Assembly (NCBI GenBank): GCA_039932735.1
Contig: JBDTPK010000001.1
Span: forward strand, 1-59,529
Direction of reading: 5' to 3'
Length of the DNA: 59,529 nt
From: Nitrospirota bacterium
Lineage (GTDB): Bacteria; Nitrospirota; Nitrospiria; Nitrospirales; Nitrospiraceae
The translations under genes and the position numbers were made by a program. Of the stretch, positions 6,581 to 52,705 are shown piece by piece. Position 1 is the first letter of the stretch. The number at the start of each line of letters is the position of its first letter. Under the pieces are notes generated by a model that ran no database searches, was not told where the DNA came from, and worked only from the letters and a program-made list of their open reading frames with translations.

Positions 6581-9073
6581 ATGACATGGCGCGAGATGGG
6601 AATTGGGCTAGGAGTGTTCGTATTGTTGATAGTATTGGCCTTCGCGGTGGTACATTCCGCATTTGCGCAGTCGGACGCGGCAACCATTACCATTCCACCT
6701 CAAGAGTTGTCGACAGCGCTGACAGCGTTGGCCGAACAAGCGAATCTACAAGTACTCTATGCGTCGGAACTGACGAGCGGGAAAATGACGAAAGGACTCA
6801 CCGGCACGGTCACCCCGGAGGAGGCCGTCCAACAGCTGTTAGACGGCACCGGCCTGGGCTATACGTTTACCGATGCCAAGACCGTGACGCTTCAGGCTGC
6901 GGCGCCGGTTGTTACGAGCCCGGGCGATCTTTCTGCTCCCACGGAACCGAGGACGATCAAACAGAAACCGATAAAAGTTCCAGAAGTCATGGTGCGAGAC
7001 GTTAAAGAACGCAGCTATACCGCCGACGAAGCATCGAGCGCCACGCGCATCCCGGTGCCCATTCAAGAGACGCCCCGATCAGTTGAAGTGGTCACGCAAC
7101 AGGTGATCGAAGACCAAAAGATCATTCGGATGAGCGATGCGCTGTTAAACGTGAGCGGCACGTCCCAGTTCAGCACACAGGGCGGTCAAGGCGGGAGCTT
7201 CATGATACGCGGATTCGCGTCCGACCTGAATGTGTTCAAGAACGGCTTTCGGGATGACAGTACGTTTAGCTCCCGTGCTCAGCGCGACATTATCAATCTC
7301 GAGAGCATCGAAGTGGTGAAGGGTCCGCCGTCCTACCTCTATGGTCGCTCCGATCCGGGCGGTATCATCAATCAGATTACGAAAGCTCCTTTGAGGAATC
7401 CGTATTATTCAGGTGAGATGATCATCGGCAGTTACGGGCTCTATCGCCCGACGGTCGACATCGGGGGGTCGCTGAACGAGAGCAAGACGTTGACCTATCG
7501 GTTCAACGGCATGTACGAATCTGCCGGGAGTTATCGGGACGGGGTAGACTCGAAACGCATCTTCCTCGCGCCGACACTTGGATGGGAAATTGGGCCACGA
7601 ACAACGTTCCGCTTTGAAGGCGAGTATCTCTACGATCGATTACCTATCGATCGAGGCTTGGTGGCAATCGGCGACGGGGTCGCACCCATTCCAATCAGCC
7701 GTTTCTTAGGGGACCCGACGAGAAAAATCGAGACGAATCATGGGAAGGCCACGTTGACGTTGTTACATGAATTTAATGACATGTTCAAATGGCGCACCGC
7801 ATTCAGAGGGGCTGCGACCCACAGCCGATACTCCAGCCTGGAGTCCAATTTTCTGGTGGGTGACGAAAACGATGGAATCCTTGACTTAGCGCGATATGAG
7901 ATTCCGACGACGGTTCAAAGTCACTACTTGCAAAATGAATTGCACGGCCTGTTCTCAACCGGCTCGATCAAGCATAAGACCATTCTTGGCATCGAACTGG
8001 GCCGAGAGGTCTCCTCGGCATCAGCATCCGGTGATTTCGGCGGCGATACATCCACACCGGGAGCGTTCAGCTTCATTAATATCTTCAACCCGAATGACAG
8101 GCTGTTTTTAAACTCGACCCTGACGAAATTCAGCAATACCAAGCAAACCAATAACATTATCGGCCTCTATTTCGGGGATCACATCAGTCTTCTGGAAAAT
8201 CTTCATCTACATGGAGGGGGTCGGTTCGACATTTTCGAACAGAACCTGACCAATCGCCCGGACGATTTTGTGGCAACCCAGACCGAAACCAGTCAAACCA
8301 ATAGAAAGTTCAGCCCATCCATCGGGCTGACATACCAACCGTGGAAGCCCGTAGCCCTCTACGCCAACTACACAGAGTCCTTTGCGCCTCAAGCCTCAGG
8401 ATCAAAAAGCACCACTGGGGCGCTGTTCGACCCGGAAACCGGGAAGGCCTATGAAGGCGGCGTCAAATTCCAGGCATTTGAAAACAGATTGCGGTCAACC
8501 ATCGCCGTGTTCGACATCAAGAAGAAGAATGTATTGACGAACGATCCGCTGAATGGGTTCTTATTTTCTGTCTCGACGGGCCAGCAGCGCAGCAAAGGCA
8601 TCGAATTCGACGTGGCGGGAAGAATACTGCCCGGGTGGGAGATCATCGCCAATTATGCCTATATTGATGCGCGGATCGACAAGGATGTGTTGTTTCTTGA
8701 AGGGAGTCGCGTGTCCAACTCGGCCTTACACCAAGGCAGGGTGTGGACAACCTATTTTTTCCAGGAAGGAGTTGTGAAGGGCTTCGGCGCGGGGATCGGC
8801 ATGTTGGCGCAAGGCAGTCGGAACGGAGTGTTTCAATGCCAGGACCCCGCGAACTGCCAAGCACCCTTCGAGCTTCCTGGCTATGTGAGAATGGACGGCG
8901 CATTGTATTACCGGAAGCAGGATATATTTGATCGAACCAATCTGCTGGCCGCGTTGAACTTTACGAACCTTCTGGATCACCAGTACTTTACCGGCACTCA
9001 AAATTTCAGAGAAATCATCTATACGGGAGCGCCCTTTACCGTGATCGGCTCGCTGAAGCTGGAGTTTAATTAA
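6581..9073 (+). CDS. TonB-dependent siderophore receptor, transducer type with N-terminal signalling (STN) domain
   Basis: Signal peptide, an STN-like segment (ITIPPQELSTALTALAEQANLQVLYASELTSGKMTKGLTGTVTPEEAVQQLLDGTGL), a plug (ETPRSVEVVTQQVIEDQ..., IEVVKGPPS) and a long beta-barrel. A gggggag RBS precedes the ATG. Confidence 0.95.
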   Translation: MTWREMGIGLGVFVLLIVLAFAVVHSAFAQSDAATITIPPQELSTALTALAEQANLQVLYASELTSGKMTKGLTGTVTPEEAVQQLLDGTGLGYTFTDAKTVTLQAAAPVVTSPGDLSAPTEPRTIKQKPIKVPEVMVRDVKERSYTADEASSATRIPVPIQETPRSVEVVTQQVIEDQKIIRMSDALLNVSGTSQFSTQGGQGGSFMIRGFASDLNVFKNGFRDDSTFSSRAQRDIINLESIEVVKGPPSYLYGRSDPGGIINQITKAPLRNPYYSGEMIIGSYGLYRPTVDIGGSLNESKTLTYRFNGMYESAGSYRDGVDSKRIFLAPTLGWEIGPRTTFRFEGEYLYDRLPIDRGLVAIGDGVAPIPISRFLGDPTRKIETNHGKATLTLLHEFNDMFKWRTAFRGAATHSRYSSLESNFLVGDENDGILDLARYEIPTTVQSHYLQNELHGLFSTGSIKHKTILGIELGREVSSASASGDFGGDTSTPGAFSFINIFNPNDRLFLNSTLTKFSNTKQTNNIIGLYFGDHISLLENLHLHGGGRFDIFEQNLTNRPDDFVATQTETSQTNRKFSPSIGLTYQPWKPVALYANYTESFAPQASGSKSTTGALFDPETGKAYEGGVKFQAFENRLRSTIAVFDIKKKNVLTNDPLNGFLFSVSTGQQRSKGIEFDVAGRILPGWEIIANYAYIDARIDKDVLFLEGSRVSNSALHQGRVWTTYFFQEGVVKGFGAGIGMLAQGSRNGVFQCQDPANCQAPFELPGYVRMDGALYYRKQDIFDRTNLLAALNFTNLLDHQYFTGTQNFREIIYTGAPFTVIGSLKLEFN

Positions 9074-10540: not shown

Positions 10541-10609
10541 TCACAGTGAGACATCCCTCGCGTCGAGTTGCTTCTACGAGCTACCTTGAGAAAGAACGGA
10601 CTCCTATCG

Positions 10610-13600
10610 ATGGGCGCTGAATACGAAACCTTCGTCGATCTTTTACAGTGGCGGGTACGTCTGAATCCGAAGCAACTGGCATATACCTTTTTGGTAGATG
10701 GTGAAACAGACGCACTTCACCTTACCTACGGGGAGTTGGATCGCCAGGCTCGGTCCATAGGTGCACGGCTGCAATCATTGGGCGGTATTGGGGAGCGCGC
10801 ACTCTTGCTGTATCCTCCCGGATTGGACTATATCGCCGCCTTTTTCGGCTGCTTGTACGCAGGAGTCATTGCCGTACCGGCCTATCCTCCGCAACGCAGG
10901 CGCACAATGCCCAGACTGCAAGCCATCCTGGAAGACTCGCAGGCCACGCTGGCGCTGACGACGACACAGATCCATGCAAGAGTCCAGCGTCTCTGCAATC
11001 AGGATCCCGGCTTGGATTATTTGCAAAGACCGCAATGGCTGAACACTGATGTGCCGGCACGGGATCTCGAAACAAGCTGGTGCAGGCCTGAGATCAACGG
11101 TCTGACGCTCGCGTTTCTTCAGTACACGTCAGGGTCGACAGGCATACCGAAGGGCGTCATGGTCAGCCACAGCAACCTTCTGGACAACGAGCGGATGATC
11201 ACGCAGGCATTCGGTCATACGGAAGGAACGACTGTGCTCGGATGGTTGCCCCTCTATCACGATATGGGATTGATCGGAAACGTTCTTCAACCGCTCTATC
11301 TCGGTGTGCCGTGCGTGCTCATGTCCCCTATTCACTTTCTCCAGAAGCCTTTCCGATGGCTATCCGCAATCTCGCGATATCGTGCGACGACCAGCGGAGG
11401 GCCGAATTTCGCCTATGACCTGTGTGTGCGTCAGACGACGCCCGAGCAGCGTGCGTCGTTGGATCTCAGTTGCTGGACGGTCGCGTTCAATGGAGCGGAA
11501 CCGATCCACGCCGGCACGCTCGATCGATTCACGGACGCGTTCAGCGCGTCCGGATTCCGTCGCGAGGCGTTTTATCCCTGCTACGGGTTGGCGGAGGGGA
11601 CCTTGCTGGTTTCCGGCGGAGACAGGACGACTCCTCCGGTGCTTCGAACGATCAAAAAGGCGGAATTGCAGCAGCACTGCGTCCTCGCTGCAACTGGAGC
11701 CGATAGAGAGACGCAGCAGTTGGTCGGGTGCGGGTATCCTCGATTTCACCAACAGATCCGCATCGTGAACCCCGAGTCGTTACGAATCTGTCCGGCAGGT
11801 CGTGTCGGAGAAGTGTGGGTGAAGGGCCCAAGTATAGCGGGGGGCTATTGGAATCGACCGGAAGAAACGTCCCAGACGTTCGAGGGCTACACCTCGGACA
11901 GCAGCGAGGGGCCGTTCCTTCGCACGGGTGACCTCGGGTTTGTGCAGGACGGCGAACTGTTCATCACCGGGCGTTTGAAAGACCTCATCATCATCCGTGG
12001 CCGTAATCATTATCCTCACGACATCGAACTGACGGTACAACTGAGTCATGCAAGTCTTCGACCGGAAGGCGGAGCCGCATTCTCTATCGAGCTGCAAGAA
12101 AAGGAATGGCTGGTCGTGGTCCATGAAGTGGAGTCCTGTCGTGTACCATTCGATGGCGAGACGGTAATAGCCGCGATTCGCCAGGCCGTCGCCGAATACC
12201 ATGAAGTGCAAGTCGCCGCGGTTGTCCTCATCAAGGCTGGGACTCTCCCCAAAACGTCGAGCGGAAAGGTCCAGCGGAGTCTGTGCCGCATGAAGTTTCT
12301 CGCCCGGGAATTCGATGTGATCGAGCAGTCCGTTTCGCCGCCTTCTCTTATTGGAGGTGGAAACGAAGCGGGTGAGCGGGCGGCCGTTGTGCAAGGGGAT
12401 GATCTTGAAAAGATCGTCGTCGAGATTTGGTCGAAAGTGTTGCAGCAGCCGACGATCCGGCCGCAGGACAATTTTTTTGCCATGGGCGGGGACTCATTGC
12501 GTGGCACGCAGGTGCTAGCCCGTTTGCAGGAAACCTGTCGGATCGATGTGCCATTGGACGCGCTCTTCGACTATCCGACCGCGGCTGAATTCGCCGCCCA
12601 TATCGAGACCCTCACGCCCCCTGCTGGCGCGTCCTCGGATGTCACCATCCACGCCGCGTCGCGGGAGGGGGCAGTGCCTCTATCGTTTGCGCAGGAACGG
12701 TTCTGGTTTCTCGAACAGCTGTCACCGGGAACTCCGTTCAACAATATTCCCATCGCCCTGCGGCTGAACGGCTCGCTCGATGTGGAGGTGCTTCGTCGAT
12801 CACTCGACGAAATCGTTCGACGCCATGAGATTCTCCGTGCCTCCTTCGTGCTGCACAACGGCCAACCGGCCCAGATTATTGCTCCCCGTCTCGACATTCC
12901 GTTTTCGACCGAAGACCTGAATCGTGCCTCCGAGTCAAGCCGGGAAGAGCAGCTCCAACGCCTGGTCGAAGAGGAAGCCCGCCGTCCGTTTGATTTCATG
13001 AGGGAGCCACTTCTTCGCCTTCGATTGTTCCGAATCAGCGAAACAGACCATGTGCTGTCGTTGACTGTCCACCATATCGTCGCGGACGGCTGGTCCATGG
13101 GTCTTCTCAGCCGGGAACTGGCGGCGTTGTATCACGCATTCATCGAGGGCCGTGTTTCTCCGTTGCCGGCTCTTCCGATCCAGTATCTCGATGTGGCGCT
13201 TCATCAGAGACAAGGCGTCCGAGAGGAAGAGTTCCAGCGGCAAGCGACCTACTGGCAGCAGCGTCTTGATCATGTTTCGAACATACTGAGTCTGCCGTTC
13301 GATTATCCCCGCCCGGAAGTACAGGGGTATCGAGGGGCGCGCCATGATTGGACGCTGGAGGCATCGGTCGTGCAGCAGTTGCGGACGGTGGGGTCTCGAC
13401 ATCGGACGACGTTGTTCATGACGCTGCTGGCAGCCTTCAACATCCTGTTGTTCCGCTATAGCGGCCAATCCGATTTCTGTGTCGGTACGCCGGTGGCCAA
13501 TCGCAACCGAATCGAGTGCGAACCGCTGATCGGCTGCTTCGTCAACACGGTGGCCTTGGGCGCCGATCTTTCCGGCAATCCGTCCCTTCCTGAGTTTCTC

Positions 13601-16333
13601 GATCAGGTTCGGGCGACCGTCCTGGGCGCGCAGGCGAACCAGGAGATTCCATTCGAACGATTAGTCGATGAGTTGAAGGTGGCCAGAGACTTGGGGCATA
13701 CACCGATTTTTCAAGTCATGTTCGTCCTGGAGGACCGTCTGTCGGATGTACGTTCCTTGGGAGATCTGGAGGCGTACAGGATGAATGTGAACACGCAGAC
13801 ATCCGTGTTCGACCTCACGTTGGAGATGGCGGAGAAAGCCGACGGAAGTCTGACGGCCGTGTTCGAATACAGTACCGATCTGTTTGCCGGCCCCACAATC
13901 GTTCGCATGGCCGAACATCTTCACGTCTTGCTGACTCAAATCGTCGCCTTCCCGGAGTCCCGCGTGAGCGAACTACCGATGCTGACGGCGAACGAACGCG
14001 CGTATGTCCTCGCAGACTGCAACGAGACGCAGGCGCTCTATCCATCTGAGTCTTGTCTGCATCAATTGGTTGAGGCACGGACAGCCGGCAGTCCGGACGC
14101 CGTGGCGCTGCTGTGCGAGGGGCGTTCGTATACCTATGCCTCCATTAACAGCAGAGCGAATCAACTCGCCCGATATTTACGGGCACAAGGGGTTGGTCCG
14201 GAGATTCCCGTGGCGCTGTGCGTGGATCGGTCCCTCGAAATGGTGGTCGGTCTCCTGGGAATCCTCAAGGCCGGTGCGGCCTATGTGCCCATGGATCCGG
14301 CCTACCCCAAGGAACGGAAGTCCGTCATTCTCAAGGATGTTCAGCCACGGCTGCTCTTGACGCGAGGGAAGTTTGCCGGAGGATTGCCGGATCAAGCGGC
14401 ACCGGTCTTCGCGCTCGATGAAGATTGGACGGTGGTGGCCCGCTTCCCGGACACCAATCTGCCGATTCTCACCAGCCCGGACAATTTGGCCTACATTCTC
14501 TATACCTCCGGGACGACCGGTCGGCCCAAGGGGACCGGCATCTCCCATCGGGCCTTGGTGAATCACGGCACCGCGATGGTGATGCAGTACGGCCTTGCTT
14601 CGACGGATCATGTGCTTCAGTTCGCGTCCGTCAGCTTCGATGTAGCCGCCGAAGAATGTTTCCCAACATGGATTGCGGGGGCGACGGTGGTGTTGCGTCC
14701 CAATGAGCCTGTGCCTGCATGTGCGGATTTTCACGCATTTCTTCGCGAGCAGGGTCTTACGGTACTGAACCTTCCGACGCCCTACTGGGCCGGATGGGTC
14801 GAGGAGCTCGAGCGAACCGGCCTGCCGCTTCCACCGTTGATCAGACTCGTCATCGTGGGGAGCGAGAAGGCGTTGCCCGACTGTCTGGTCCGCTGGCAAC
14901 GCGTGGCGGGAGGGCAGATTGTCTGGTGCAATTCGTATGGGCCGACGGAAGCCACGATTACCGCCAGCAGTTATGTGCCGGGACCCGAGATGGATTGGCG
15001 CACTGCAGTCACCGTGCCGATCGGACGACCGATTGCCAACGTCGAACTGTTTGTCCTCGATTCGCATCTTCACCCTGTTCCACTCGGTGTACCGGGTGAC
15101 CTCTTCATCGGAGGCGCGGGGCTCGCACGCGGGTATCACCGCATGCCGGCCCTCACTGCCGAGAAATTCATTCCGCATCCCTTCAGCCGGCGACGGGGGG
15201 AACGGTTGTATGGAACCGGTGATCGCGTCCGCCGTCGGCCGGACGGCCAGGTGGAGTTTCTGGGTCGGCGGGATGAACAGGTGAAGATCCGGGGGTTCCG
15301 TATCGAGCTCTCTGAAATTGAAGTCCATGCGCGCCAACACCCGCAGGTGAAGGAAGCCAGAGTGTTTTTGGAGTCGGGGGGGGCTCGCGGGTGGACCGCG
15401 CTCATCGGCGGCCTCAGCGAGGTCGAGCAAGACCGGATGCTACGGGATGTCGAGTGTTTGACGGCGGTGGAAGCGCAGTGGGTCTACGATTTGGAATCGG
15501 ATGCTGAGGAACGGAGGAAGACCGTGATCCAACGAAAGCCGGAGTTCGATGTGTACCTGAAGGTCAACAAAGGAGAATTCTTGACCCCTCCGCGTGAAAA
15601 CCAGCGCAACTGGCTCTTGCGCCGGGCGCTCGATGAGTTCTCGGACGATCTCGTCGCTCTCGACGCTATTTCCAAGCGGTTTGTTTCCGGATCCGACCGG
15701 GTCAGCATCGAACAGAGCTGGACGGGGAGTCGGGCGGAATATACGCCGTCTGAACTGATCATCGAGGGGCAACAAGTCATGCAGGATTGGGAGGCGCCTT
15801 TGATGAAGGCGATGGCGAACATCGCCACGGAATCCCGCGGCGATGTGCTCGAGGTCGGATTCGGAATGGGTATCTCAGCGTCCTACATTCAGGCCGGCCA
15901 GCCCCGCTCGCATACTATCATCGAGTGCAATCGTGAGGTGATGACCGCTTTTGCGGACTGGACCGGCCGCTACCCCGATCGGGACATCCGTCTAGTGCAA
16001 GGACGATGGCAGGAAGCGGTGGGGGCACTCTCTGAATTTGATGCCGTATTTTTCGATACGTACCCGGCGAGTGAAGCGGAATTCGAAGAGTCGGTGATCA
16101 ACAGCATCAACTTTGCCGAAGCATTCATTCCTGCGGCCGCGAAACTATTGCGACCCGGCGGTGTGTTTACCTATTACACGAATGAGATCGATTCCTTCAG
16201 CCGACGGCATCAACGCTTCCTGTTCCAGCACTTCAGCTCGTTCACGCTCAGCATCGTGCGCTCGCTCCTTCCGCCGGAGGATTGTCACTATTGGTGGGCG
16301 GACTCGATGGCTGTCGTCAAGGCGGTGAAGTGA
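10610..16333 (+). CDS. Loading/first-module megasynthase: FAAL - ACP - C - A (through motif A8) - GAMT/RMT2-like methyltransferase
   Basis: FAAL (YTSGSTGIPKGVMVSH...GDLGF...KTSSGKVQR), carrier (FFAMGGDSL), C (HHIVADGWS), and A (LYTSGTTGRPKG...SFDVAAEE...NSYGPTEAT...YGTGDRV...KIRGFRIELSEIE). After A8 comes a ~130-aa linker and then a GAMT-like domain. The ORF is open from TTG 10568; ATG 10610 is the likelier start. Confidence 0.9.
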   Translation: MGAEYETFVDLLQWRVRLNPKQLAYTFLVDGETDALHLTYGELDRQARSIGARLQSLGGIGERALLLYPPGLDYIAAFFGCLYAGVIAVPAYPPQRRRTMPRLQAILEDSQATLALTTTQIHARVQRLCNQDPGLDYLQRPQWLNTDVPARDLETSWCRPEINGLTLAFLQYTSGSTGIPKGVMVSHSNLLDNERMITQAFGHTEGTTVLGWLPLYHDMGLIGNVLQPLYLGVPCVLMSPIHFLQKPFRWLSAISRYRATTSGGPNFAYDLCVRQTTPEQRASLDLSCWTVAFNGAEPIHAGTLDRFTDAFSASGFRREAFYPCYGLAEGTLLVSGGDRTTPPVLRTIKKAELQQHCVLAATGADRETQQLVGCGYPRFHQQIRIVNPESLRICPAGRVGEVWVKGPSIAGGYWNRPEETSQTFEGYTSDSSEGPFLRTGDLGFVQDGELFITGRLKDLIIIRGRNHYPHDIELTVQLSHASLRPEGGAAFSIELQEKEWLVVVHEVESCRVPFDGETVIAAIRQAVAEYHEVQVAAVVLIKAGTLPKTSSGKVQRSLCRMKFLAREFDVIEQSVSPPSLIGGGNEAGERAAVVQGDDLEKIVVEIWSKVLQQPTIRPQDNFFAMGGDSLRGTQVLARLQETCRIDVPLDALFDYPTAAEFAAHIETLTPPAGASSDVTIHAASREGAVPLSFAQERFWFLEQLSPGTPFNNIPIALRLNGSLDVEVLRRSLDEIVRRHEILRASFVLHNGQPAQIIAPRLDIPFSTEDLNRASESSREEQLQRLVEEEARRPFDFMREPLLRLRLFRISETDHVLSLTVHHIVADGWSMGLLSRELAALYHAFIEGRVSPLPALPIQYLDVALHQRQGVREEEFQRQATYWQQRLDHVSNILSLPFDYPRPEVQGYRGARHDWTLEASVVQQLRTVGSRHRTTLFMTLLAAFNILLFRYSGQSDFCVGTPVANRNRIECEPLIGCFVNTVALGADLSGNPSLPEFLDQVRATVLGAQANQEIPFERLVDELKVARDLGHTPIFQVMFVLEDRLSDVRSLGDLEAYRMNVNTQTSVFDLTLEMAEKADGSLTAVFEYSTDLFAGPTIVRMAEHLHVLLTQIVAFPESRVSELPMLTANERAYVLADCNETQALYPSESCLHQLVEARTAGSPDAVALLCEGRSYTYASINSRANQLARYLRAQGVGPEIPVALCVDRSLEMVVGLLGILKAGAAYVPMDPAYPKERKSVILKDVQPRLLLTRGKFAGGLPDQAAPVFALDEDWTVVARFPDTNLPILTSPDNLAYILYTSGTTGRPKGTGISHRALVNHGTAMVMQYGLASTDHVLQFASVSFDVAAEECFPTWIAGATVVLRPNEPVPACADFHAFLREQGLTVLNLPTPYWAGWVEELERTGLPLPPLIRLVIVGSEKALPDCLVRWQRVAGGQIVWCNSYGPTEATITASSYVPGPEMDWRTAVTVPIGRPIANVELFVLDSHLHPVPLGVPGDLFIGGAGLARGYHRMPALTAEKFIPHPFSRRRGERLYGTGDRVRRRPDGQVEFLGRRDEQVKIRGFRIELSEIEVHARQHPQVKEARVFLESGGARGWTALIGGLSEVEQDRMLRDVECLTAVEAQWVYDLESDAEERRKTVIQRKPEFDVYLKVNKGEFLTPPRENQRNWLLRRALDEFSDDLVALDAISKRFVSGSDRVSIEQSWTGSRAEYTPSELIIEGQQVMQDWEAPLMKAMANIATESRGDVLEVGFGMGISASYIQAGQPRSHTIIECNREVMTAFADWTGRYPDRDIRLVQGRWQEAVGALSEFDAVFFDTYPASEAEFEESVINSINFAEAFIPAAAKLLRPGGVFTYYTNEIDSFSRRHQRFLFQHFSSFTLSIVRSLLPPEDCHYWWADSMAVVKAVK
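15755..16330 (+). other. GAMT/RMT2-like SAM methyltransferase domain embedded after A-domain motif A8
   Basis: Colinear with my recollection of guanidinoacetate N-methyltransferase: VMQDWEAPLMKAMA (GAMT VMERWETPYMHALA), VLEVGFGMGISAS (VLEVGFGMAIAAS), IIECN (same), FDAVFFDTYP (FDGILYDTYP), LLRPGGVFTYY (LLKPGGVLTYC), LLPPEDCHYW (LVPPADCRYY). Confidence 0.75.
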
Positions 16334-16334
16334 T

Positions 16335-16988
16335 ATGGAGGATCTTCTCCAGCGGATCGATCGTCTGACCGAACCGCAGCGGAAACTTCTCCGTCTCAGA
16401 CTAGGAGGCAGGAGAGAGGAACGGGAAAGCGAGTCTCGATTGGTGGGGTATGTCGTGCTTCGTGCGCATGACGCGTCGACCGTTCATGGTCTCCGGGGAT
16501 TTCTGGCCGAACGTTTGCCGGATTATATGATGCCGGCGACCTGGATCGTCCTCGATTCCTTCCCACTGACGTCTCGCGGAAAAGTGGACCATAAGGCTTT
16601 GCAGGGTATGGTTCAGCCGGCGCCGGACACGGCGGCTCGGCAGGGAGCACCTCGCAACGACTGCGAGCGAGCCATTGCGACGATTTGGGCAGAGGCGCTG
16701 GGTCTCCACGACGTCGGACTCCACGACAATTTCTTCGATCTGGGAGGGCATTCCCTTCTGTTGCCGAAGGTCCTTACGCAGGTACGGACCGTAACCCGGC
16801 GCGAGGTATCGATGGTCGATCTCTTTCGTTATCCGACGGTACAGGCATTGGCCGCATATATGGCGGCGGACCAGGTGCCGGTCGCCGAAGAGCCGGTGAT
16901 TCAACAGGTCAAGGATAAGCGGGAAGCGGGCGTGCGCCGGATGAAACAGCAACGACGCCAGAGACAAGAAGCCGTGAGGGGCAAATGA
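16335..16988 (+). CDS. Stand-alone A-domain C-terminal subdomain (motifs A9-A10) fused to a T domain
   Basis: RLVGYVV...LPDYMMPATWIVLDSFPLTSRGKVDHKAL (A9/A10 with the catalytic Lys), then FFDLGGHSLL (T). The ATG lies 1 nt after the upstream TGA, and the stop overlaps the PKS start (ATGA). Confidence 0.85.
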   Translation: MEDLLQRIDRLTEPQRKLLRLRLGGRREERESESRLVGYVVLRAHDASTVHGLRGFLAERLPDYMMPATWIVLDSFPLTSRGKVDHKALQGMVQPAPDTAARQGAPRNDCERAIATIWAEALGLHDVGLHDNFFDLGGHSLLLPKVLTQVRTVTRREVSMVDLFRYPTVQALAAYMAADQVPVAEEPVIQQVKDKREAGVRRMKQQRRQRQEAVRGK

Positions 16989-19900
16989 CGGCGGCCGCCG
17001 ATCGAGCGAGCGAGAGTCAAGCCGAAGACGGCTTGGATGTGGCCATCGTCGGGATGGCCGGCCGGTTTCCAGGTGCAAACAATCTGGATGTGTTCTGGCG
17101 CAATCTTCAGGGCGGTGTTGAGTCCGTCTCCACGCTCAGCCGGGAAGAACTGTTGGAGTCGGGAGTGGAGCCGAAGGTCTTGGATCGGACGAATTATGTC
17201 CGGGCTCGCGCGGTTCTGGCGGATGTCGATCTCTTCGATGCCAGGTTTTTCAACATGACTCCGAGAGAAGCCGACATCATGGACCCCCAGCAGCGGCTGT
17301 TTCTCGAATGTGCGTGGGAAACGCTGGAACGGGCGGGGTACGACCCGGAGCGATACTCCGGATCGATCGGCGTCTATGCGGGATCGAGCACCAGCGGGTA
17401 TCTCTTCAATTTATTTCCTCGCCGGGTACTCCTACAGTCGGCCGCCGACATGGCGGCGATGCTAGGCGTGGAGAAGGATTCGCTCTCGACGCGTGTGTCG
17501 TACAAGTTGAACCTTGAAGGGCCGAGTCTGGCGGTGCAAACGGCTTGTTCGACGTCTCTGGTCGCAGTCCACCTGGCGTGCCAGGCATTGCTGAGCGGGG
17601 AATGTGATATGGCCCTGGCGGGCGGCGTCTCCGTCAATGTGCCGCAGAAAGTGGGCTATCTCTATCAGGAGGGCGGTATCGCCTCGCCGGACGGTCATTG
17701 CCGCACCTTCGATGCCGGCGCGGAAGGCACCGTCGGCGGGAGCGGTGTGGGCCTCGTGTTGCTCAAGCGGTTGCAGGAGGCCGAAGCAGACGGCGATCAG
17801 ATCCTGGCTGTAATCAAGGGCTCCGCGATCAATAACGACGGGGCAGCCAAGGTCGGCTACACAGCACCCCGCATCGAAGGCCAGGCGAAAGTCATCAGAG
17901 CGGCGCACCTGACCGCCGGCGTGACGCCGGACTCAATCTCCTATGTCGAGGCTCACGGAACAGGTACACCGATGGGGGACCCGATTGAAGTGGCGGCGTT
18001 GACCCAGGCCTTTCGGGCCTCGACGGCCCGTACCGGATTCTGCGCGCTCGGATCAGTCAAGACCAATATCGGTCATCTGGATGCCGCGGCCGGCATCGCC
18101 GGTCTGATCAAGACGGTACTGGCGCTCTCCCATCGACAGATCCCGGCGAGTTTGCATTACGTCCGCCCCAATCCCGCCATCGATTTCCCCGCCACACCGT
18201 TTTATGTGAACAGGGCTCTGGCGGATTGGGCGCGTGGTGAGTCGCCGCGTCGTGCCGGCGTCAGCTCGTTCGGGCTCGGCGGCACGAATGCACACGTGGT
18301 GCTGGAAGAGGCGCCTGCGAATCACGAGGCGTCCGTGGTGGAGGACGAAACTCGCTGTCAGTTGCTTCTGTTGTCCGCCCGGTCGGAAGCGGCGTTGAGC
18401 GAAGCGACGAATAGGCTTTTGGCGCATTTCCATGAACATCCGAATCTCTGTCTTGCCGACGTCGCCCATACCCTTCAATCGGGTCGGAAAGCCTTCCCGT
18501 ATCGTCGCTGGCTGACGGCTGTGAATGCGGAGGAAGCCGGACGGCTGCTCTCTCACCCGATGGTTGCGGCAGCAACGGCCGGCCCTGTGACAGGAGAGCG
18601 GCGGGTCGCCTTCATGTTTTCCGGGCAGGGCTCGCAGTATCCGCACATGGGGCGATCGCTCTATCGGCAGCAGCCCGTGTTTCGGGATCATGTCGATCGG
18701 TGCGCGTCGATCTTGAGTCGGCATCTCGGTCGGGATATCCGGACGGTGCTGTTTCCGGTCTCTGCAACGGAACAGGACCTGATTCATCGCACCGTCCTGA
18801 CTCAGCCGGCATTGTTCGTGTTCGAATATGCCCTTGCGCAACTGTGGAAGACATGGGGGGTTCACCCGTATGCCATGATCGGTCATAGCATCGGGGAGTA
18901 CGTCGCGGCCTGCCTATCCGGAGTGTTTTCGCTTCAAGACGCGTTGGCCATCGTGGCGATGCGGGGGCGACTGATGCAGGATCTTCCTTCCGGAAGCATG
19001 CTGGCCGTTCCGCTCACGGAAGCAGGCGTGATGCCGTTTCTGCGCGGGAATCTGGATCTCGCCGCAGTCAATGCGCCTGCGCAGTGCGTGGTCTCCGGTT
19101 CCGATGAACAGATCGCTGCATTGGACCGCGAATTGGCGGCTCAGAACATACAAGGGCGGCGCCTCAAGACATCGCACGCGTTTCATTCATCCATGATGGA
19201 CTCGATTCTGAAACCCTTTGAGTCTTTTCTTGCCGGGATCGCGGTACAGGCCCCTGAGGTTCCCTGGGTGTCTAATGTGAGCGGCACGTGGATTCAACGC
19301 GAAGAAGCGATGGATCCGGCTTACTGGTCGCGCCATTTGCGCTCGACGGTGCGCTTTTCCGAGGGGGTTCGGACGTTGCTGGAACAGTCTGCGCCGGTGT
19401 TGTTGGAGATTGGTCCCGGACGTACGTTGCAGAACCTGGCCCGGCGGCATCCCACTCAGTCCAGCTTGTCCGCACTGGCTTCATTCAATGGACTCGACCA
19501 GACAGAATCCGGACAGGACGAAATGCCCGCCATCCTGACGACGCTCGGTTCTCTCTGGGGAGCCGGTGTTCGAGTGGACTGGACCGGTCTGCACAGCGGG
19601 TACCGGCGGCGACGGGTTGCTCTGCCGACCTATCCATTTGAGCGGCAACGTTATTGGGTGGAGCCTGTTCAGGTTGATCCAGCTCAGGCGCCGGCGTCCG
19701 GCGACAGGCAGGCCGATCTCTCGACGTGGTTCTACCAACCGTCGTGGAAACGGTCGGCGCTGGTCGGGAAGGGCGAACGATGTCCCGACGAACAGTGGCT
19801 TGTTTTTCTCGATGAGCAGCCGACCGGCACGGCACTCGTCAAGGATCTGGAACGACAAGGCCGGTCGGTCGTCAGGGTGTCGACCGGAAATGGATTTGAA

Positions 19901-21535
19901 CGGCGTTCCGACGGGACCTATCGAGTCAGACCCGACTCCCAGGACGATCATGAGTTGTTGCGGCGAGATTTGACCAGCCGAGATCAGCTCCCATCCTGTC
20001 TCGTGCATGCCTGGACAATCGGCGATGAACCGAGAGGGACAACCGCTGCCTTGCGCATGCAGATGGCGCAAGAAAGAGGATTCCTCCACCTGCTCCTTCT
20101 CGCGCAGATATTCGGGCGCCGGCGTAGCGCTAGACTCTCGATTCTCGTGCTTTCTCACGGGTTGCATGATGTCACCGGGGAGGAAACGTTATGTCCTGAA
20201 CAGGCCACGTTGCTGGGGGCCTGTCGTGTCATTCCGCAAGAGTACCCGGGCGTGACATGTCGTGTGATCGACCTGGAAAGATCGTCCGCGGGTAAGCCGC
20301 ACCCGGATGCGCTCCACGATCGCCTGATCGCTGAAGCCAGCAGTCCCGATGCCGAGCCGGTTGTGGCGTACCGAGGTCCGCACCGATGGGTGCAGACGTT
20401 CGAGCCACTTATCCTTGAGAAAAAAGGTGCCGGACCTTCTCTGCTGCGTGAGGAAGGTGTGTATCTCATTACAGGCGGTGTGGGAGGGGTCGGACTCTGC
20501 CTTGCCGAGTATCTCATTCGTACCGTGCGTGCACGGGTGATTCTCACGAGCCGGACGCTTCCGACTCCTAAGCAGCGTGAGCATGTGGCCTGTCTGGAGC
20601 GATCGGGCGGGCGCATTCTGACTCTTCAAGCCGATGTCGCCGATCTTGCACACATGCAGGGAGTGATTGCCGAAGCCTGTCGACAGTTCGGCCGGATTCA
20701 TGGGGTGTTTCATGCCGCGGGGGTCGCCGGCGGCGGACTCCTGGAGTTGAAGACGGCGGAAGCCGTATGGGAGGAATTCCGGCCGAAAGTTTCCGGAGCC
20801 TTGGTGCTCGAAGAGGCGTTTCGAGATGTCCAACCGGAGTTTGTGATGTTCTGTTCTTCCTTGACGGCGGTGGTCGGAGGGGTGGGGCAGGGCGCCTATT
20901 GCGCGGCCAATGCCTTTCTGGACGCCACTGCCCATGCCAGAACGAAACAGGGAACACGCGTCATCTCCGTGAATTTCGATCGGTGGCGTCAGGTCGGCAT
21001 GGCGGTTCAAGCAGAAGCCTGGCTCAAGACATTGCGGGTCGCTGATGCGGAATTAGTCGGCATGACCCCGCAGGAAGGTCAAGAAACAGTCCATCGGATT
21101 CTTCGCGGTCCGAACCTGCCGCAGATCGCCGTGTCCATTCGCGATCTGCCTACGGTGGCTGCGTCCGTCGCTCGGATATCGATGACACAATCGCAGGCTG
21201 CTCAGCCGGCAGCTCCGTCGGTCATCGCAGAGGCAGGGGAGTCGTTGGAACGAGAGATGGGGGACTTGTGGCGACAGATTTTGGGCGCCGAACGCGTGGG
21301 GCTGGAGGATGATTTTTTTCGGCTGGGGGGCGAATCCTTGAGCGCCCTTCAACTGTTGAACCGCGTTCAAGAACTCTACGACCTCGAGCTGTCGCTTCGC
21401 GATTTTTTCGACACGCCGACGGTTTTAGGATTGGTCCGGCAGATTCGCGCGGCGCGAGCCGCTGGGGTACAGCAAGAGGCCAGAATCGTTCCCCTTCCCC
21501 GCGAAGCAAGGCAGTTGCGCGGGGCCTCGGCATGA
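16985..21535 (+). CDS. Type I PKS module KS-AT-KR-ACP
   Basis: KS (TACSTSL, EAHGTGT, NIGH), AT (GHSIGE, HAFHS indicating malonyl), KR (YLITGGVGGVG, YCAAN) and ACP (LGGESLSA). No DH or ER motifs seen. Confidence 0.95.
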   Translation: MTAAADRASESQAEDGLDVAIVGMAGRFPGANNLDVFWRNLQGGVESVSTLSREELLESGVEPKVLDRTNYVRARAVLADVDLFDARFFNMTPREADIMDPQQRLFLECAWETLERAGYDPERYSGSIGVYAGSSTSGYLFNLFPRRVLLQSAADMAAMLGVEKDSLSTRVSYKLNLEGPSLAVQTACSTSLVAVHLACQALLSGECDMALAGGVSVNVPQKVGYLYQEGGIASPDGHCRTFDAGAEGTVGGSGVGLVLLKRLQEAEADGDQILAVIKGSAINNDGAAKVGYTAPRIEGQAKVIRAAHLTAGVTPDSISYVEAHGTGTPMGDPIEVAALTQAFRASTARTGFCALGSVKTNIGHLDAAAGIAGLIKTVLALSHRQIPASLHYVRPNPAIDFPATPFYVNRALADWARGESPRRAGVSSFGLGGTNAHVVLEEAPANHEASVVEDETRCQLLLLSARSEAALSEATNRLLAHFHEHPNLCLADVAHTLQSGRKAFPYRRWLTAVNAEEAGRLLSHPMVAAATAGPVTGERRVAFMFSGQGSQYPHMGRSLYRQQPVFRDHVDRCASILSRHLGRDIRTVLFPVSATEQDLIHRTVLTQPALFVFEYALAQLWKTWGVHPYAMIGHSIGEYVAACLSGVFSLQDALAIVAMRGRLMQDLPSGSMLAVPLTEAGVMPFLRGNLDLAAVNAPAQCVVSGSDEQIAALDRELAAQNIQGRRLKTSHAFHSSMMDSILKPFESFLAGIAVQAPEVPWVSNVSGTWIQREEAMDPAYWSRHLRSTVRFSEGVRTLLEQSAPVLLEIGPGRTLQNLARRHPTQSSLSALASFNGLDQTESGQDEMPAILTTLGSLWGAGVRVDWTGLHSGYRRRRVALPTYPFERQRYWVEPVQVDPAQAPASGDRQADLSTWFYQPSWKRSALVGKGERCPDEQWLVFLDEQPTGTALVKDLERQGRSVVRVSTGNGFERRSDGTYRVRPDSQDDHELLRRDLTSRDQLPSCLVHAWTIGDEPRGTTAALRMQMAQERGFLHLLLLAQIFGRRRSARLSILVLSHGLHDVTGEETLCPEQATLLGACRVIPQEYPGVTCRVIDLERSSAGKPHPDALHDRLIAEASSPDAEPVVAYRGPHRWVQTFEPLILEKKGAGPSLLREEGVYLITGGVGGVGLCLAEYLIRTVRARVILTSRTLPTPKQREHVACLERSGGRILTLQADVADLAHMQGVIAEACRQFGRIHGVFHAAGVAGGGLLELKTAEAVWEEFRPKVSGALVLEEAFRDVQPEFVMFCSSLTAVVGGVGQGAYCAANAFLDATAHARTKQGTRVISVNFDRWRQVGMAVQAEAWLKTLRVADAELVGMTPQEGQETVHRILRGPNLPQIAVSIRDLPTVAASVARISMTQSQAAQPAAPSVIAEAGESLEREMGDLWRQILGAERVGLEDDFFRLGGESLSALQLLNRVQELYDLELSLRDFFDTPTVLGLVRQIRAARAAGVQQEARIVPLPREARQLRGASA

Positions 21536-27129: not shown

Positions 27130-27152
27130 CCGTAACCACATAAGGAGGCACC

Positions 27153-27389
27153 ATGGGAAACGACGAACGGGAAGATACGACGGTCTACAAAGTGGTGATG
27201 AATCATGAAGAGCAATATTCCATCTGGCCGTCCTACCGGGACAATCCTCTCGGGTGGACGGATGCGGGGAAGACCGGTCTCAAGCAAGAGTGCTTGAACT
27301 ACATCAAGGAGGTGTGGACGGACATGCGGCCGTTGAGTTTGCGCAAGTGGATGGCTGAACAGGTGGACAAGACGATCCCGTCATGCTGA
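27153..27389 (+). CDS. MbtH-like protein
   Basis: [26 protein letters not shown]...[17 protein letters not shown] contains the three conserved Trp residues. An aaggagg RBS is present. Confidence 0.95.
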
Positions 27390-52697: not shown

Positions 52698-52705
52698 GAA
52701 GATTC

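What the first reader, a model, noticed from the sequence alone, without database searches (positions are those of the whole stretch)
15365..16333. Guanidinoacetate/RMT2-type methyltransferase inserted into an adenylation domain
After motif A8 (KIRGFRIELSEIE) the A domain is interrupted by ~130 aa of unassigned sequence and then ~190 aa that are colinear with guanidinoacetate N-methyltransferase. The shared blocks include VLEVGFGMGISAS, IIECN, FDAVFFDTYP, LLRPGGVFTYY and LLPPEDCHYW. Interrupted A domains with methyltransferases between a8 and a9 are known, but to my knowledge those inserts are backbone N-, O- or S-methyltransferases of a different class I lineage. The GAMT/RMT2 lineage methylates the alkyl-attached nitrogen of a guanidino group: GAMT makes creatine, and yeast RMT2 makes delta-N-methylarginine. 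The host A domain has an acidic, Arg-like pocket (E at position 239, N at 278). My inference is that this module loads Arg or a related guanidino amino acid and methylates the guanidino group on the assembly line. The downstream KS-AT-KR-ACP would then extend it to a 4-amino-3-hydroxy-7-(N-methylguanidino)heptanoyl unit.
Basis: partly seen in the sequence, partly recalled or inferred. Interest (0 to 1): 0.85.

Follow-up and report, generated by a model that had tools for sequence, protein, structure and literature searches.

The report
Creatine-type methyltransferase splitting an NRPS module
A Nitrospira siderophore-type assembly line carries a methyltransferase related to the creatine-making enzyme GAMT, fused after motif A8 of an arginine-type adenylation domain whose remaining part sits on a separate small protein; this conserved, apparently undescribed arrangement most likely methylates the arginine guanidino group.

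Summary
Residues encoded by about 15515..16330 are a full-length member of the guanidinoacetate N-methyltransferase family. The evidence is phmmer against GAMT (E 2e-26), a profile search (3e-39), the Pfam PF27704 tag on all homologues, and an AlphaFold model (pLDDT 90) whose five best PDB matches are all GAMT. It is not an ordinary NRPS N-, O- or S-methyltransferase.

The host A domain has the code DVENIGSIT(K). It is closest to ApnA A1, which activates Arg, and to CmnG.

Two refinements:
- This is not a continuous insertion. The protein ends with the methyltransferase (TGA at 16331..16333). A 217-aa protein (16335..16988) supplies a conserved N-terminal helix motif, the rest of the A C-terminal subdomain (A9/A10) and the PCP. 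The split is conserved in 17 Nitrospira genomes, Acidobacteriota, Nostoc, a Kofleriaceae MAG and Massilia.
- About half of the "unassigned" 130 aa is a family-specific N-terminal extension of the methyltransferase.

Every A domain coupled to this methyltransferase has an acidic pocket. Actinobacterial relatives sit in 4-guanidinobutyrate starter cassettes. One module carries this methyltransferase and a canonical N-MT together.

Best reading: guanidino N-methylation of carrier-bound arginine. This is unproven, and the regiochemistry is open. I rate it a new variant of a known kind.

The parts
10568..16333 (+). ORF1, 1921 aa: FAAL-ACP-C-A(A1 to A8)-GAMT-like methyltransferase. The listed start is TTG 10568; an ATG at 10610 is an alternative.
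10628..12319 (+). Fatty acyl-AMP ligase domain (lipo-initiation)
   Evidence: NCBIfam FAAL models, E 1e-152; Pfam AMP-binding and DIP2-like domains
12416..12604 (+). Acyl carrier domain
   Evidence: Pfam PP-binding, aa 617-679
12665..14002 (+). Condensation domain
   Evidence: Pfam Condensation, aa 700-1145
14072..15139 (+). Adenylation core (A1-A7). Specificity code DVENIGSIT(K), Arg-like.
   Evidence: Best single-stretch PDB match is ApnA A1 (4d4g). The pocket segment 14621..14995 hits only ApnA A1 and CmnG.
15140..15388 (+). First part of the A C-terminal subdomain: A8 motif (15284..15322) and the strand that follows it (VKEARVFLES)
   Evidence: colinear with GrsA and with uninterrupted A domains of the window
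15389..15514 (+). Linker between the A subdomain fragment and the methyltransferase
   Evidence: No homology to freestanding methyltransferases, whose matches start at query residues about 50-57
15515..15712 (+). N-terminal extension specific to the bacterial GAMT-like family (two strands and a long helix in the model)
   Evidence: Present in freestanding 270-aa homologues; the extension lies in blocks of mean pLDDT 78-95; absent from GAMT
15713..16330 (+). GAMT-homologous catalytic core: VMQDWE, VLEVGFGMG (motif I), IIECN, FFDTYP, PPEDCHY
16331..16337 (+). TGA stop, one base, then the ATG of the next gene. This junction is conserved in 17 Nitrospira genomes.
16335..16988 (+). ORF2, 217 aa. 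It has a conserved N-terminal helix motif (RIDRLTEPQRKLLRLRL, 16335..16406), the rest of the A C-subdomain (RLVGYVV strand, A9 LPDYMMP, A10 GKVDHK; 16437..16601) and a PCP (16671..16859).
16985..21535 (+). PKS module KS-AT(malonyl-type, GHSIG/HAFH)-KR-ACP, which would extend the aminoacyl unit
27150..27383 (+). MbtH-like protein, a likely partner of the A domains
   Evidence: Pfam MbtH, E 4e-23
52658..59529 (+). Fifth NRPS gene, which runs off the window. It has an Asp-code module, then an uninterrupted Arg-like A domain (DVEGIGAIT)-PCP-TE. It serves as an internal comparison: a similar pocket with no methyltransferase and no split.

Best explanation
ORF1 and ORF2 together form one NRPS module in two pieces.

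ORF1 carries FAAL-ACP-C, the A core, the first part of the A C-terminal subdomain (through A8 and the next strand) and a C-terminal GAMT-family SAM-dependent methyltransferase. ORF2 brings a conserved N-terminal helix, the missing strands and motifs A9/A10 of the subdomain, and the PCP.

Proposed sequence of events (all inferred except where noted):
1. The two proteins associate so that a complete A domain forms. The ORF2 helix is a likely docking element.
2. The A domain activates L-arginine or a very close basic guanidino amino acid and loads it on the ORF2 PCP.
3. The tethered methyltransferase transfers a methyl group from SAM to a guanidino nitrogen of the carrier-bound residue. By analogy with GAMT and blasticidin BlsL, the internal delta-N is the most likely site.
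4. The C domain N-acylates the residue with the FAAL-loaded fatty acid.
5. KS-AT-KR-ACP extends it with malonate to a 4-acylamino-3-hydroxy-7-(N-methylguanidino)heptanoyl starter of a beta-hydroxyaspartate-type lipopeptide siderophore.

Shown: family membership, intact catalytic positions, purifying selection, the conserved split, and the association with acidic-pocket A domains. Inferred: substrate identity, timing on the carrier, regiochemistry, and docking.
For: GAMT family membership:
- Sequence, profile, Pfam tag and fold all agree.
- All 69 bacterial homologues taken from genomes, and the window, keep the positions equivalent to human GAMT E46, D135, Y222, G68, G70 and E90.
- dN/dS of the methyltransferase among Nitrospira genomes is 0.03-0.06.

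Arg-type A domain:
- The code is DVENIGSIT. ApnA A1 codes DVEDIGAIEK and DVESIGAIEK are linked to Arg (PMC5311044 Table 2).
- ApnA A1 is the best single-stretch solved relative (E 5e-119).
- The pocket segment hits only ApnA A1 and CmnG in the PDB.
- A second, uninterrupted A domain in the same cluster has the near-identical code DVEGIGAIT.

Association across genomes:
- Every A domain directly coupled to this methyltransferase whose code could be read has E239 and/or D/E278. This holds in Nitrospirota, Acidobacteriota, Cyanobacteria, Myxococcota, Massilia and Actinomycetota. Neighbouring uncoupled A domains give ordinary Asp, Ser, Thr and Pro codes.

Guanidino chemistry of the family:
- In four Allokutzneria species and in Actinokineospora the freestanding homologue lies beside a carbon-nitrogen hydrolase, an AMP ligase, a flavin amine oxidase and a PKS.
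- These are the enzyme families of the arginine to 4-guanidinobutyryl-CoA starter pathway (PMC5082578).

Not backbone N-methylation:
- Locus L021 has this methyltransferase and a canonical Methyltransf_12-type N-MT in the same module.

The split is real:
- In the 68 genome loci where the methyltransferase homology is complete (L067 is frameshifted; L069 and L070 stop at contig ends), the ORF reaches its stop within nine codons of the end of the homology, and exactly at it in 63.
- A small Asub-PCP protein with a conserved N-terminal motif follows in about 40 loci.

Scaffold precedent: variochelin has a fatty acyl-Arg-polyketide unit (PMC10999976).
Against: - No product is known for this cluster or for any family member that I could find, so nothing chemical supports methylation.
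- Substrate prediction from 9-10 pocket residues is fallible. Lys, Orn or homoarginine are not excluded. The D278-type codes (DSWD.., DAAD.., DVLD..) have no characterised counterpart that I could check.
- Some freestanding family members follow terminal modules with non-basic codes (L037 DVWSLSLVD, L074 DLYTNAL-T). Adjacency therefore does not always point to an Arg module.
- The roles I assign to GAMT E45, D134 and Y221 and to the carboxylate loop come from memory of the rat GAMT structures. I did not re-read those papers.
- The known methylguanidines of marginolactones carry the methyl, as I recall, on the terminal nitrogens. The family's regiochemistry may therefore not follow GAMT.
- Complementation of the split subdomain was not modelled.
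Confidence: 0.6

Rival explanations
1. The methyltransferase acts off-line. Either it methylates free arginine first and the A domain then selects N-methylarginine, or it methylates the released or later-stage peptide. In this reading the fusion only ensures stoichiometry and proximity.
For: - Most family members are freestanding 270-aa proteins.
- Some lie after complete terminal modules (L034, L036, L037, L074).
- GAMT acts on a free small molecule. BlsL acts on a free late intermediate (PMC5572114).
Against: - The methyltransferase sits exactly inside the A C-subdomain that delivers the PCP. This arrangement is conserved across phyla.
- The segment that in GAMT holds the substrate carboxylate is 13 residues shorter in all 69 bacterial sequences. 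That argues against a small free acid, though less so against a larger free peptide.
- A second Arg-like module in the same cluster has no methyltransferase. This suggests position-specific, in-cis action.
Confidence: 0.17
2. The methyltransferase has been recruited to methylate a different nucleophile of the loaded residue. Candidates are the alpha-amine (backbone N-methylation) or the side-chain amine of Lys, Orn or Dab, rather than a guanidino nitrogen.
For: - Its position in the A C-subdomain resembles that of backbone N-MT domains.
- An acidic pocket fits any basic amino acid.
- Bacitracin Lys and Orn codes, as I remember them, also carry E239 or E278.
Against: - L021 has a canonical N-MT in the same module, which makes a second backbone N-MT redundant.
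- The GAMT positions that, from memory, bind and deprotonate the guanidinium are invariant in all 69 homologues.
- Family members are embedded in guanidinobutyrate starter cassettes.
- The closest solved A domains activate guanidino amino acids.
Confidence: 0.13
3. The methyltransferase is catalytically silent and serves only as a structural or docking platform for the split A domain.
For: No activity data exist. Silent tailoring domains are known in assembly lines (general knowledge).
Against: - Motif I, the acidic ribose-binding residue and all GAMT catalytic positions are intact.
- dN/dS is 0.03-0.06.
- Freestanding homologues with the same motifs exist in large numbers.
Confidence: 0.05
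4. The stop codon after the methyltransferase is a sequencing error or a recent pseudogenising mutation, and the module is really a normal continuous interrupted A domain.
For: Only one base separates the stop and the next ATG. Some long-read MAG loci (L067, L014) do show frameshifts.
Against: - The same TGA-N-ATG junction occurs in 17 Nitrospira genomes, including the complete Ca. N. defluvii chromosome.
- A stop follows the methyltransferase in other phyla too, and the downstream ORF sits in varying frames and at varying distances.
- The downstream proteins share a conserved N-terminal motif that begins at their own start codon.
Confidence: 0.01

Closest known systems
Guanidinoacetate N-methyltransferase (GAMT; PDB 1xcj, 3orh, 1khh)
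   Same: - Same fold and family.
- About 30-36% identity over the core.
- Conserved SAM motif I, the ECN acidic residue, the WE and D(T)YP positions and PP.DC.Y.
   Different: - The bacterial family has a roughly 65-aa N-terminal extension.
- It is 13 residues shorter in the segment after TY(C)N, which in GAMT (from memory) holds the guanidinoacetate carboxylate.
- Here it is fused to an NRPS A domain, so the presumed substrate is a tethered arginine side chain and not a free small acid.
Interrupted adenylation domains with methyltransferases between a8 and a9 (for example TioS A4-M, PDB 5wmm; KtzH) - from general knowledge
   Same: - A methyltransferase lies between motifs A8 and A9 of an A domain, positioned to act on the residue loaded on the following PCP.
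- Canonical examples occur in the related loci L018 and L021.
   Different: - Different methyltransferase lineage: PF27704 rather than Methyltransf_11/12/25.
- The polypeptide ends after the methyltransferase, and the rest of the subdomain is a separate protein.
- The break lies before the LVAYVV strand, whereas the canonical N-MT in L021 lies after it.
- The predicted target is a side-chain guanidino nitrogen.
BlsL, the guanidine N-methyltransferase of blasticidin S biosynthesis (PMC5572114)
   Same: - A bacterial natural-product methyltransferase reported to resemble GAMT (33% identity).
- It methylates the guanidino group of an arginine-derived residue.
- It requires the neighbouring amine to be acylated. 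That is a possible parallel to an N-acyl-Arg-S-PCP substrate here.
   Different: - BlsL is freestanding and acts on a free peptidyl-nucleoside intermediate.
- I had no BlsL sequence, so its relationship to this family was not tested.
Variochelin-type lipopeptide siderophore assembly lines (Variovorax; PMC10999976)
   Same: - FAAL-initiated.
- An Arg-type module is followed directly by a PKS module, giving a 4-acylamino-7-guanidino-3-hydroxyheptanoate-type unit.
- TauD-type Asp beta-hydroxylases and a TonB-dependent receptor are present.
   Different: - The paper reports no methyltransferase in or after the Arg A domain.
- Variochelin uses methylmalonate. Here the AT has the malonyl signature HAFH.
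- The host is Nitrospira.
- A PvdQ-type acylase and a class-III aminotransferase are also present.
4-Guanidinobutyryl-CoA starter pathway of marginolactones such as azalomycin and kanchanamycin (PMC5082578)
   Same: Freestanding members of this methyltransferase family sit beside the three enzyme families of that pathway and a PKS in Allokutzneria and Actinokineospora. Azalomycins are methylated on the guanidino group, and the responsible enzyme is reported as unidentified.
   Different: This is a polyketide context with a freestanding enzyme. It bears on the family's chemistry, not on the window's module architecture.

Membership tests
GAMT family (Pfam PF27704 GuanidinoAc_N-MeTrfase) | Significant sequence or profile similarity over the whole catalytic domain | tested here: met
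   phmmer gives 1.8e-26 and the family profile 3.2e-39 against GAMT, covering residues 18-228 of 235. PF27704 is precomputed on all listed homologues.
GAMT family (Pfam PF27704 GuanidinoAc_N-MeTrfase) | GAMT-like class I methyltransferase fold | tested here: met
   The model has pLDDT 90.4. The top five Foldseek PDB matches are all GAMT, with TM 0.77-0.81.
GAMT family (Pfam PF27704 GuanidinoAc_N-MeTrfase) | SAM-binding motif I (E.G.G) and the acidic residue at the end of strand 2 | tested here: met
   VLEVGFGMG and IIECN are present. G68, G70 and E90 (human numbering) are invariant in 69 of 69 homologues.
GAMT family (Pfam PF27704 GuanidinoAc_N-MeTrfase) | Guanidino-binding and catalytic residues (rat E45, D134, Y221; roles from memory of the GAMT structures) | tested here: met
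   The equivalents are present in the window and invariant in 69 of 69 homologues.
GAMT family (Pfam PF27704 GuanidinoAc_N-MeTrfase) | Guanidinoacetate carboxylate-binding loop (CNLTSW..., role from memory), that is, specificity for guanidinoacetate | tested here: not met
   This segment is 13 residues shorter in all bacterial sequences. The domain is a family member but probably not a guanidinoacetate enzyme.
GAMT family (Pfam PF27704 GuanidinoAc_N-MeTrfase) | Methyl transfer to a guanidino nitrogen | not testable with these tools
   Needs an enzyme assay or the product structure.
Interrupted A domains (a8-a9 methyltransferase type) | Methyltransferase located between motifs A8 and A9 | tested here: met
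   A8 is at 15284..15322, the methyltransferase at 15515..16330, and A9/A10 are in ORF2.
Interrupted A domains (a8-a9 methyltransferase type) | One continuous polypeptide, with the A domain resuming after the insert | tested here: not met
   There is a stop at 16331..16333. In the 68 genome loci with a complete methyltransferase match the ORF ends within nine codons of the end of the homology (exactly at it in 63), and A10 lies in a separate ORF.
Interrupted A domains (a8-a9 methyltransferase type) | Methyltransferase of the usual NRPS lineage (Pfam Methyltransf_11/12/25-like) | tested here: not met
   The window methyltransferase hits Methyltransf_25 at only E 0.022. Canonical inserts in L018 and L021 score 1e-14 to 1e-18.
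Interrupted A domains (a8-a9 methyltransferase type) | Same insertion point in the C-terminal subdomain | tested here: not met
   In L021 the GAMT-type break precedes the RRLVAYIV strand and the canonical N-MT follows it. For AMP-binding_C profile positions, window ORF2 starts at 24 of 76, whereas the part after the canonical N-MT in L021 starts at 42 of 76.
Variochelin-like lipopeptide siderophore pathways | FAAL-ACP-C initiation, a basic amino acid module, then a KS-AT-KR-ACP module | tested here: met
Variochelin-like lipopeptide siderophore pathways | Iron-related context: TonB-dependent receptor, beta-hydroxyaspartate machinery | tested here: met
   TBDR 6581..9073, FecR, TonB, PepSY_TM, two TauD units and Asp-code A domains DLTKIGH[VI]G
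Variochelin-like lipopeptide siderophore pathways | Methylmalonate extender (2-methyl branch) | tested here: not met
   The AT motifs GHSIG and HAFH are the malonyl signature by established rule.
BlsL-type guanidine N-methyltransferases | Sequence relationship to BlsL | not tested
Only the paper's statement of 33% identity to GAMT is on hand.

The most novel reading that the evidence does not exclude
This may be the first recognised example of a widespread but undescribed class of two-protein NRPS modules. A GAMT-family methyltransferase caps a truncated A domain, and a small 'helix-Asub-PCP' partner completes it. Together they install N-methylarginine on the assembly line.

The same methyltransferase family would then be the general bacterial guanidino N-methyltransferase of natural-product pathways. 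That would include the so-far unidentified guanidino methyltransferase type of guanidino-polyketides. Nitrite-oxidising Nitrospira would make a methylguanidino lipopeptide siderophore.
Probability: 0.45. Interest if true: 0.75.

Novelty: new variant of a known kind. Interest (0 to 1): 0.62.

Why it matters
- **Tailoring chemistry.** Methyltransferases embedded in A domains are a recognised way in which NRPSs diversify products. The known ones are backbone N-, O- or S-methyltransferases of one lineage within a continuous polypeptide. Here a different lineage is used, the creatine/GAMT family, which in animals methylates a guanidino nitrogen.
- **Architecture.** The A domain's C-terminal subdomain is physically split between two proteins, and this is conserved from Nitrospira to Acidobacteriota, Cyanobacteria, Myxococcota and Actinomycetota. 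If confirmed, it adds a new on-line tailoring reaction (guanidino methylation), a natural split-A-domain interface that could be used for engineering, and a domain that current genome-mining rules do not name. The local Pfam copy and NCBIfam gave no family-level call.
- **Candidate enzyme for polyketides.** The family is a candidate for the unidentified guanidino methylation step of guanidino-polyketides.
- **Ecology.** It points to a modified siderophore in Nitrospira, key nitrite oxidisers of soils and wastewater plants.

Tried and rejected
- **Wrong code position.** My first Stachelhaus extraction read GrsA residue 282 instead of 278. It wrongly suggested P at 278 and several 'non-acidic' exceptions. 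I found the error when the ApnA alignment disagreed with the published ApnA code. It is corrected, with textbook Asp, Ser, Thr and Pro codes recovered as a control.
- **Local Pfam and NCBIfam scans** of the insert gave only marginal generic methyltransferase hits. The family name came from precomputed PF27704 tags.
- **Literature searches (all 10 used).** I searched for GAMT-like domains in NRPSs, methylarginine in NRPs, Nitrospira siderophores and cyanochelins. No description of this arrangement turned up. Vacidobactin and cyanochelin papers describe other building blocks.
- **Variochelin supplement.** It holds no A-domain codes.
- **Pseudogene or sequencing-error explanation for the split.** Rejected on conservation. 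Frameshifts in L067 and L014 affect several domains of those MAG contigs and look like assembly errors.
- **Not attempted.** I did not model the ORF1/ORF2 complex, because concatenated or locus-derived sequences are not accepted by the structure tool. I did not compare with BlsL or yeast RMT2, because no sequences were at hand.

Full report
**Setting**

The window is Nitrospira DNA. The insert region is 75-92% identical at protein level to 17 Nitrospira genomes, including the complete Ca. N. defluvii chromosome at 81%.

The finding lies in a siderophore-type biosynthetic cluster:
- FecR, TonB, a TonB-dependent receptor (6581..9073) and a PepSY_TM protein
- ORF1 10568..16333: FAAL-ACP-C-A-methyltransferase
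- ORF2 16335..16988
- KS-AT-KR-ACP, 16985..21535
- an ABC exporter, a class-III aminotransferase and a penicillin-amidase/PvdQ-type acylase
- an MbtH-like protein (27150..27383), a type II thioesterase and a TauD hydroxylase
- four further NRPS genes; the last runs off the window and ends in a TE

**Checking the observation**

All quoted sequence blocks are present. The translation of 15365..16330 matches rat and human GAMT at E about 1e-26, and nothing else scores below 0.04. A 40-sequence profile of bacterial homologues matches GAMT at 3e-39 over nearly its full length; the next methyltransferase is at 1e-3.

All 120 best homologues carry Pfam PF27704 'GuanidinoAc_N-MeTrfase'. My local Pfam copy lacks that model, which explains the near-empty scan.

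The AlphaFold2 model of 15488..16330 is confident (pLDDT 90.4, pTM 0.88). Its five best PDB matches are all GAMT. Spermidine synthases follow eight orders of magnitude behind, and no NRPS-embedded methyltransferase is near the top. Canonical NRPS N-methyltransferase inserts in related loci hit Methyltransf_12/25/11 at 1e-14 to 1e-18, whereas this domain reaches 0.022.

The lineage claim therefore stands.

**What the 'unassigned 130 aa' are**

Freestanding homologues are 270-273 aa long and align from about residue 50-57 of the 322-aa query. The stretch after A8 consists of three parts:
- ordinary A C-subdomain sequence (a helix plus the strand VKEARVFLES)
- a linker of about 40 aa
- a family-specific N-terminal extension of about 65 aa, modelled as two strands and a long helix

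The GAMT-like core follows.

**The split**

ORF1 ends with the methyltransferase (TGA 16331..16333). One base later ORF2 starts. ORF2 contains the strand RLVGYVV, A9 (LPDYMMP), A10 (GKVDHK) and a PCP.

This is not an error:
- In the 68 genome loci where the methyltransferase homology is complete, the ORF reaches a stop within nine codons of the end of the homology, and exactly at it in 63. L067 is frameshifted, and L069 and L070 end at contig ends.
- In about 40 loci a separate 190-220-aa protein follows, in varying frames and at varying distances. It has a conserved N-terminal motif (R[IV]xxL[ST]xxQRxLLxLRL), then the LVAYVV strand, A9/A10 and a PCP. These loci come from Nitrospira, Acidobacteriota, Nostoc, a Kofleriaceae MAG, Massilia and Actinomycetota.
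- All 17 Nitrospira loci share the TGA-N-ATG junction.

Four arrangements of the family were seen:
1. A(1-8)-MT followed by a separate Asub-PCP protein, as here.
2. In actinomycetes, three pieces: A(1-8), then MT, then Asub-PCP.
3. A methyltransferase gene directly after a complete terminal module.
4. A methyltransferase beside a PKS.

In locus L021 the downstream protein is helix-RRLVAYIV-canonical N-MT-A9/A10-PCP. The GAMT-type break therefore lies one strand earlier than the canonical a8-a9 insertion point. One module can also carry both methyltransferases.

**Is the enzyme functional, and on what?**

The window and all 69 bacterial sequences extracted from genomes keep the positions equivalent to human GAMT E46, D135, Y222, G68, G70 and E90. 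From my memory of the rat GAMT structures, these are the guanidino-binding and catalytic residues and the SAM-binding residues.

All of them are 13 residues shorter in the segment that in GAMT (again from memory) holds the substrate carboxylate. That fits a substrate other than guanidinoacetate. Among Nitrospira genomes the methyltransferase has dN/dS 0.03-0.06.

**The A domain**

My earlier codes used a wrong position (see 'tried and rejected').

- Published ApnA A1 genotypes DVEDIGAIEK and DVESIGAIEK incorporate Arg (PMC5311044 Table 2).
- ApnA A1 is the best single-stretch solved relative of the whole A domain.
- The pocket-forming segment hits only ApnA A1 and CmnG in the PDB. From memory, CmnG activates the cyclic guanidino amino acid capreomycidine.
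- The last module of the same cluster has an uninterrupted A domain with the near-identical code DVEGIGAIT. The split therefore goes with the methyltransferase, not with the substrate.

Across all loci, every A domain directly coupled to this methyltransferase whose code could be read has E239 and/or D/E278. Neighbouring domains give ordinary Asp, Ser, Thr and Pro codes.

**Independent support for guanidino chemistry**

In four Allokutzneria species and in Actinokineospora the freestanding homologue is flanked by a carbon-nitrogen hydrolase, an AMP ligase, a flavin amine oxidase and a PKS. These are the enzyme families of the arginine to 4-guanidinobutyramide to 4-guanidinobutyrate to CoA-ester starter pathway. 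The pathway is described for azalomycin, whose guanidino methyltransferase is reported as unidentified (PMC5082578). BlsL of blasticidin S is a reported GAMT-like guanidine N-methyltransferase (PMC5572114).

**Mechanism proposed**

ORF1 and ORF2 associate, probably through the ORF2 N-terminal helix, and the two halves of the subdomain complement each other. Arg is adenylated and loaded on the ORF2 PCP. The methyltransferase methylates a guanidino nitrogen of the tethered residue, and by homology delta-N is the most likely site. The C domain acylates the residue with the FAAL-loaded fatty acid. The malonyl-specific PKS module (GHSIG/HAFH) extends and reduces it.

The result would be a des-methyl-branch, N-methylguanidino analogue of the variochelin starter unit. 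Only the anatomy, conservation and family assignments are shown. Substrate, timing and regiochemistry are inferred.

**Novelty**

I found no paper describing a GAMT-family methyltransferase in or beside an NRPS A domain, nor a conserved split of the A C-subdomain of this kind. Nitrospirota NRP-metallophore clusters have been counted by genome mining (PMC12971057), but I found no product.

The components are known kinds: interrupted A domains, GAMT-like guanidino methyltransferases and variochelin-like pathways. I therefore rate it a new variant of a known kind. It is of solid interest to NRPS enzymologists and of moderate general interest.

Noticed in passing
window 52658..59529 (+): A fifth NRPS gene runs off the end of the window, so the ORF tool does not list it. 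It has two modules, an Asp code (DLTKIGHIG) and an Arg-like code (DVEGIGAIT), with normal uninterrupted A domains, then a PCP and a TE (GWSNGG). It is probably the terminating synthetase of the pathway.
   Followed up: partly
window 27150..27383 (+): A small MbtH-like gene (Pfam E 4e-23) lies between the acylase and the type II thioesterase.
   Followed up: yes
window 23315..27129 and A domains at about 37723 and 48908: Pyoverdine-like logic: a class-III aminotransferase (PvdH/EctB-like), a PvdQ-type penicillin amidase, an ABC exporter and two A domains with code DIWELTADD. From memory this is a 2,4-diaminobutyrate code. The fatty acyl group may be removed or trimmed after export.
   Followed up: no
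window 43680..52697 (aa 2703-2990) and 28245..29282: One TauD-type hydroxylase is fused to the C-terminus of an NRPS, after a terminal C domain. A second is freestanding. There are two Asp-code A domains, which suggests two beta-hydroxyaspartate iron ligands.
   Followed up: no
L021 10982..12853 (Pyrinomonadaceae MAG): The partner protein of the GAMT-type module carries a canonical Methyltransf_12-type N-MT between the LVAYIV strand and A9. This one module therefore has two different methyltransferases at two different points of the same A subdomain.
   Followed up: yes
L050 7380..14831; also L053, L055, L071 (Allokutzneria) and L065 (Actinokineospora): The freestanding family member is flanked by a CN-hydrolase, an AMP ligase and a flavin amine oxidase next to a PKS. 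This is the 4-guanidinobutyrate starter cassette, and it makes the family a candidate for the unidentified guanidino methyltransferase of guanidino-polyketides.
   Followed up: partly
ORF2 N-terminus, window 16335..16406, and equivalents in about 40 loci: A conserved N-terminal motif R[IV]xxL[ST]xxQRxLLxLRL is present on the small Asub-PCP proteins from Nitrospira to Streptomyces. It is probably a docking helix for the A-MT protein.
   Followed up: partly
L067 and L014 (Nitrospiraceae MAGs with MFD names): Several domains, including the methyltransferase in L067, are broken by frameshifts spread over the contig. This looks like assembly error and not loss of the methyltransferase.
   Followed up: partly
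L072 and L073 (Micromonospora), L045 (Actinoplanes): A freestanding methyltransferase lies next to a standalone A domain, an MbtH gene, an Asp/Glu racemase and BBE-type oxidases. This is a further, uncharacterised NRPS context for the family.
   Followed up: no
window 10568 vs 10610: The listed TTG start of ORF1 precedes an in-frame ATG 14 codons downstream (MGAEYETF...). The true start is uncertain.
   Followed up: no
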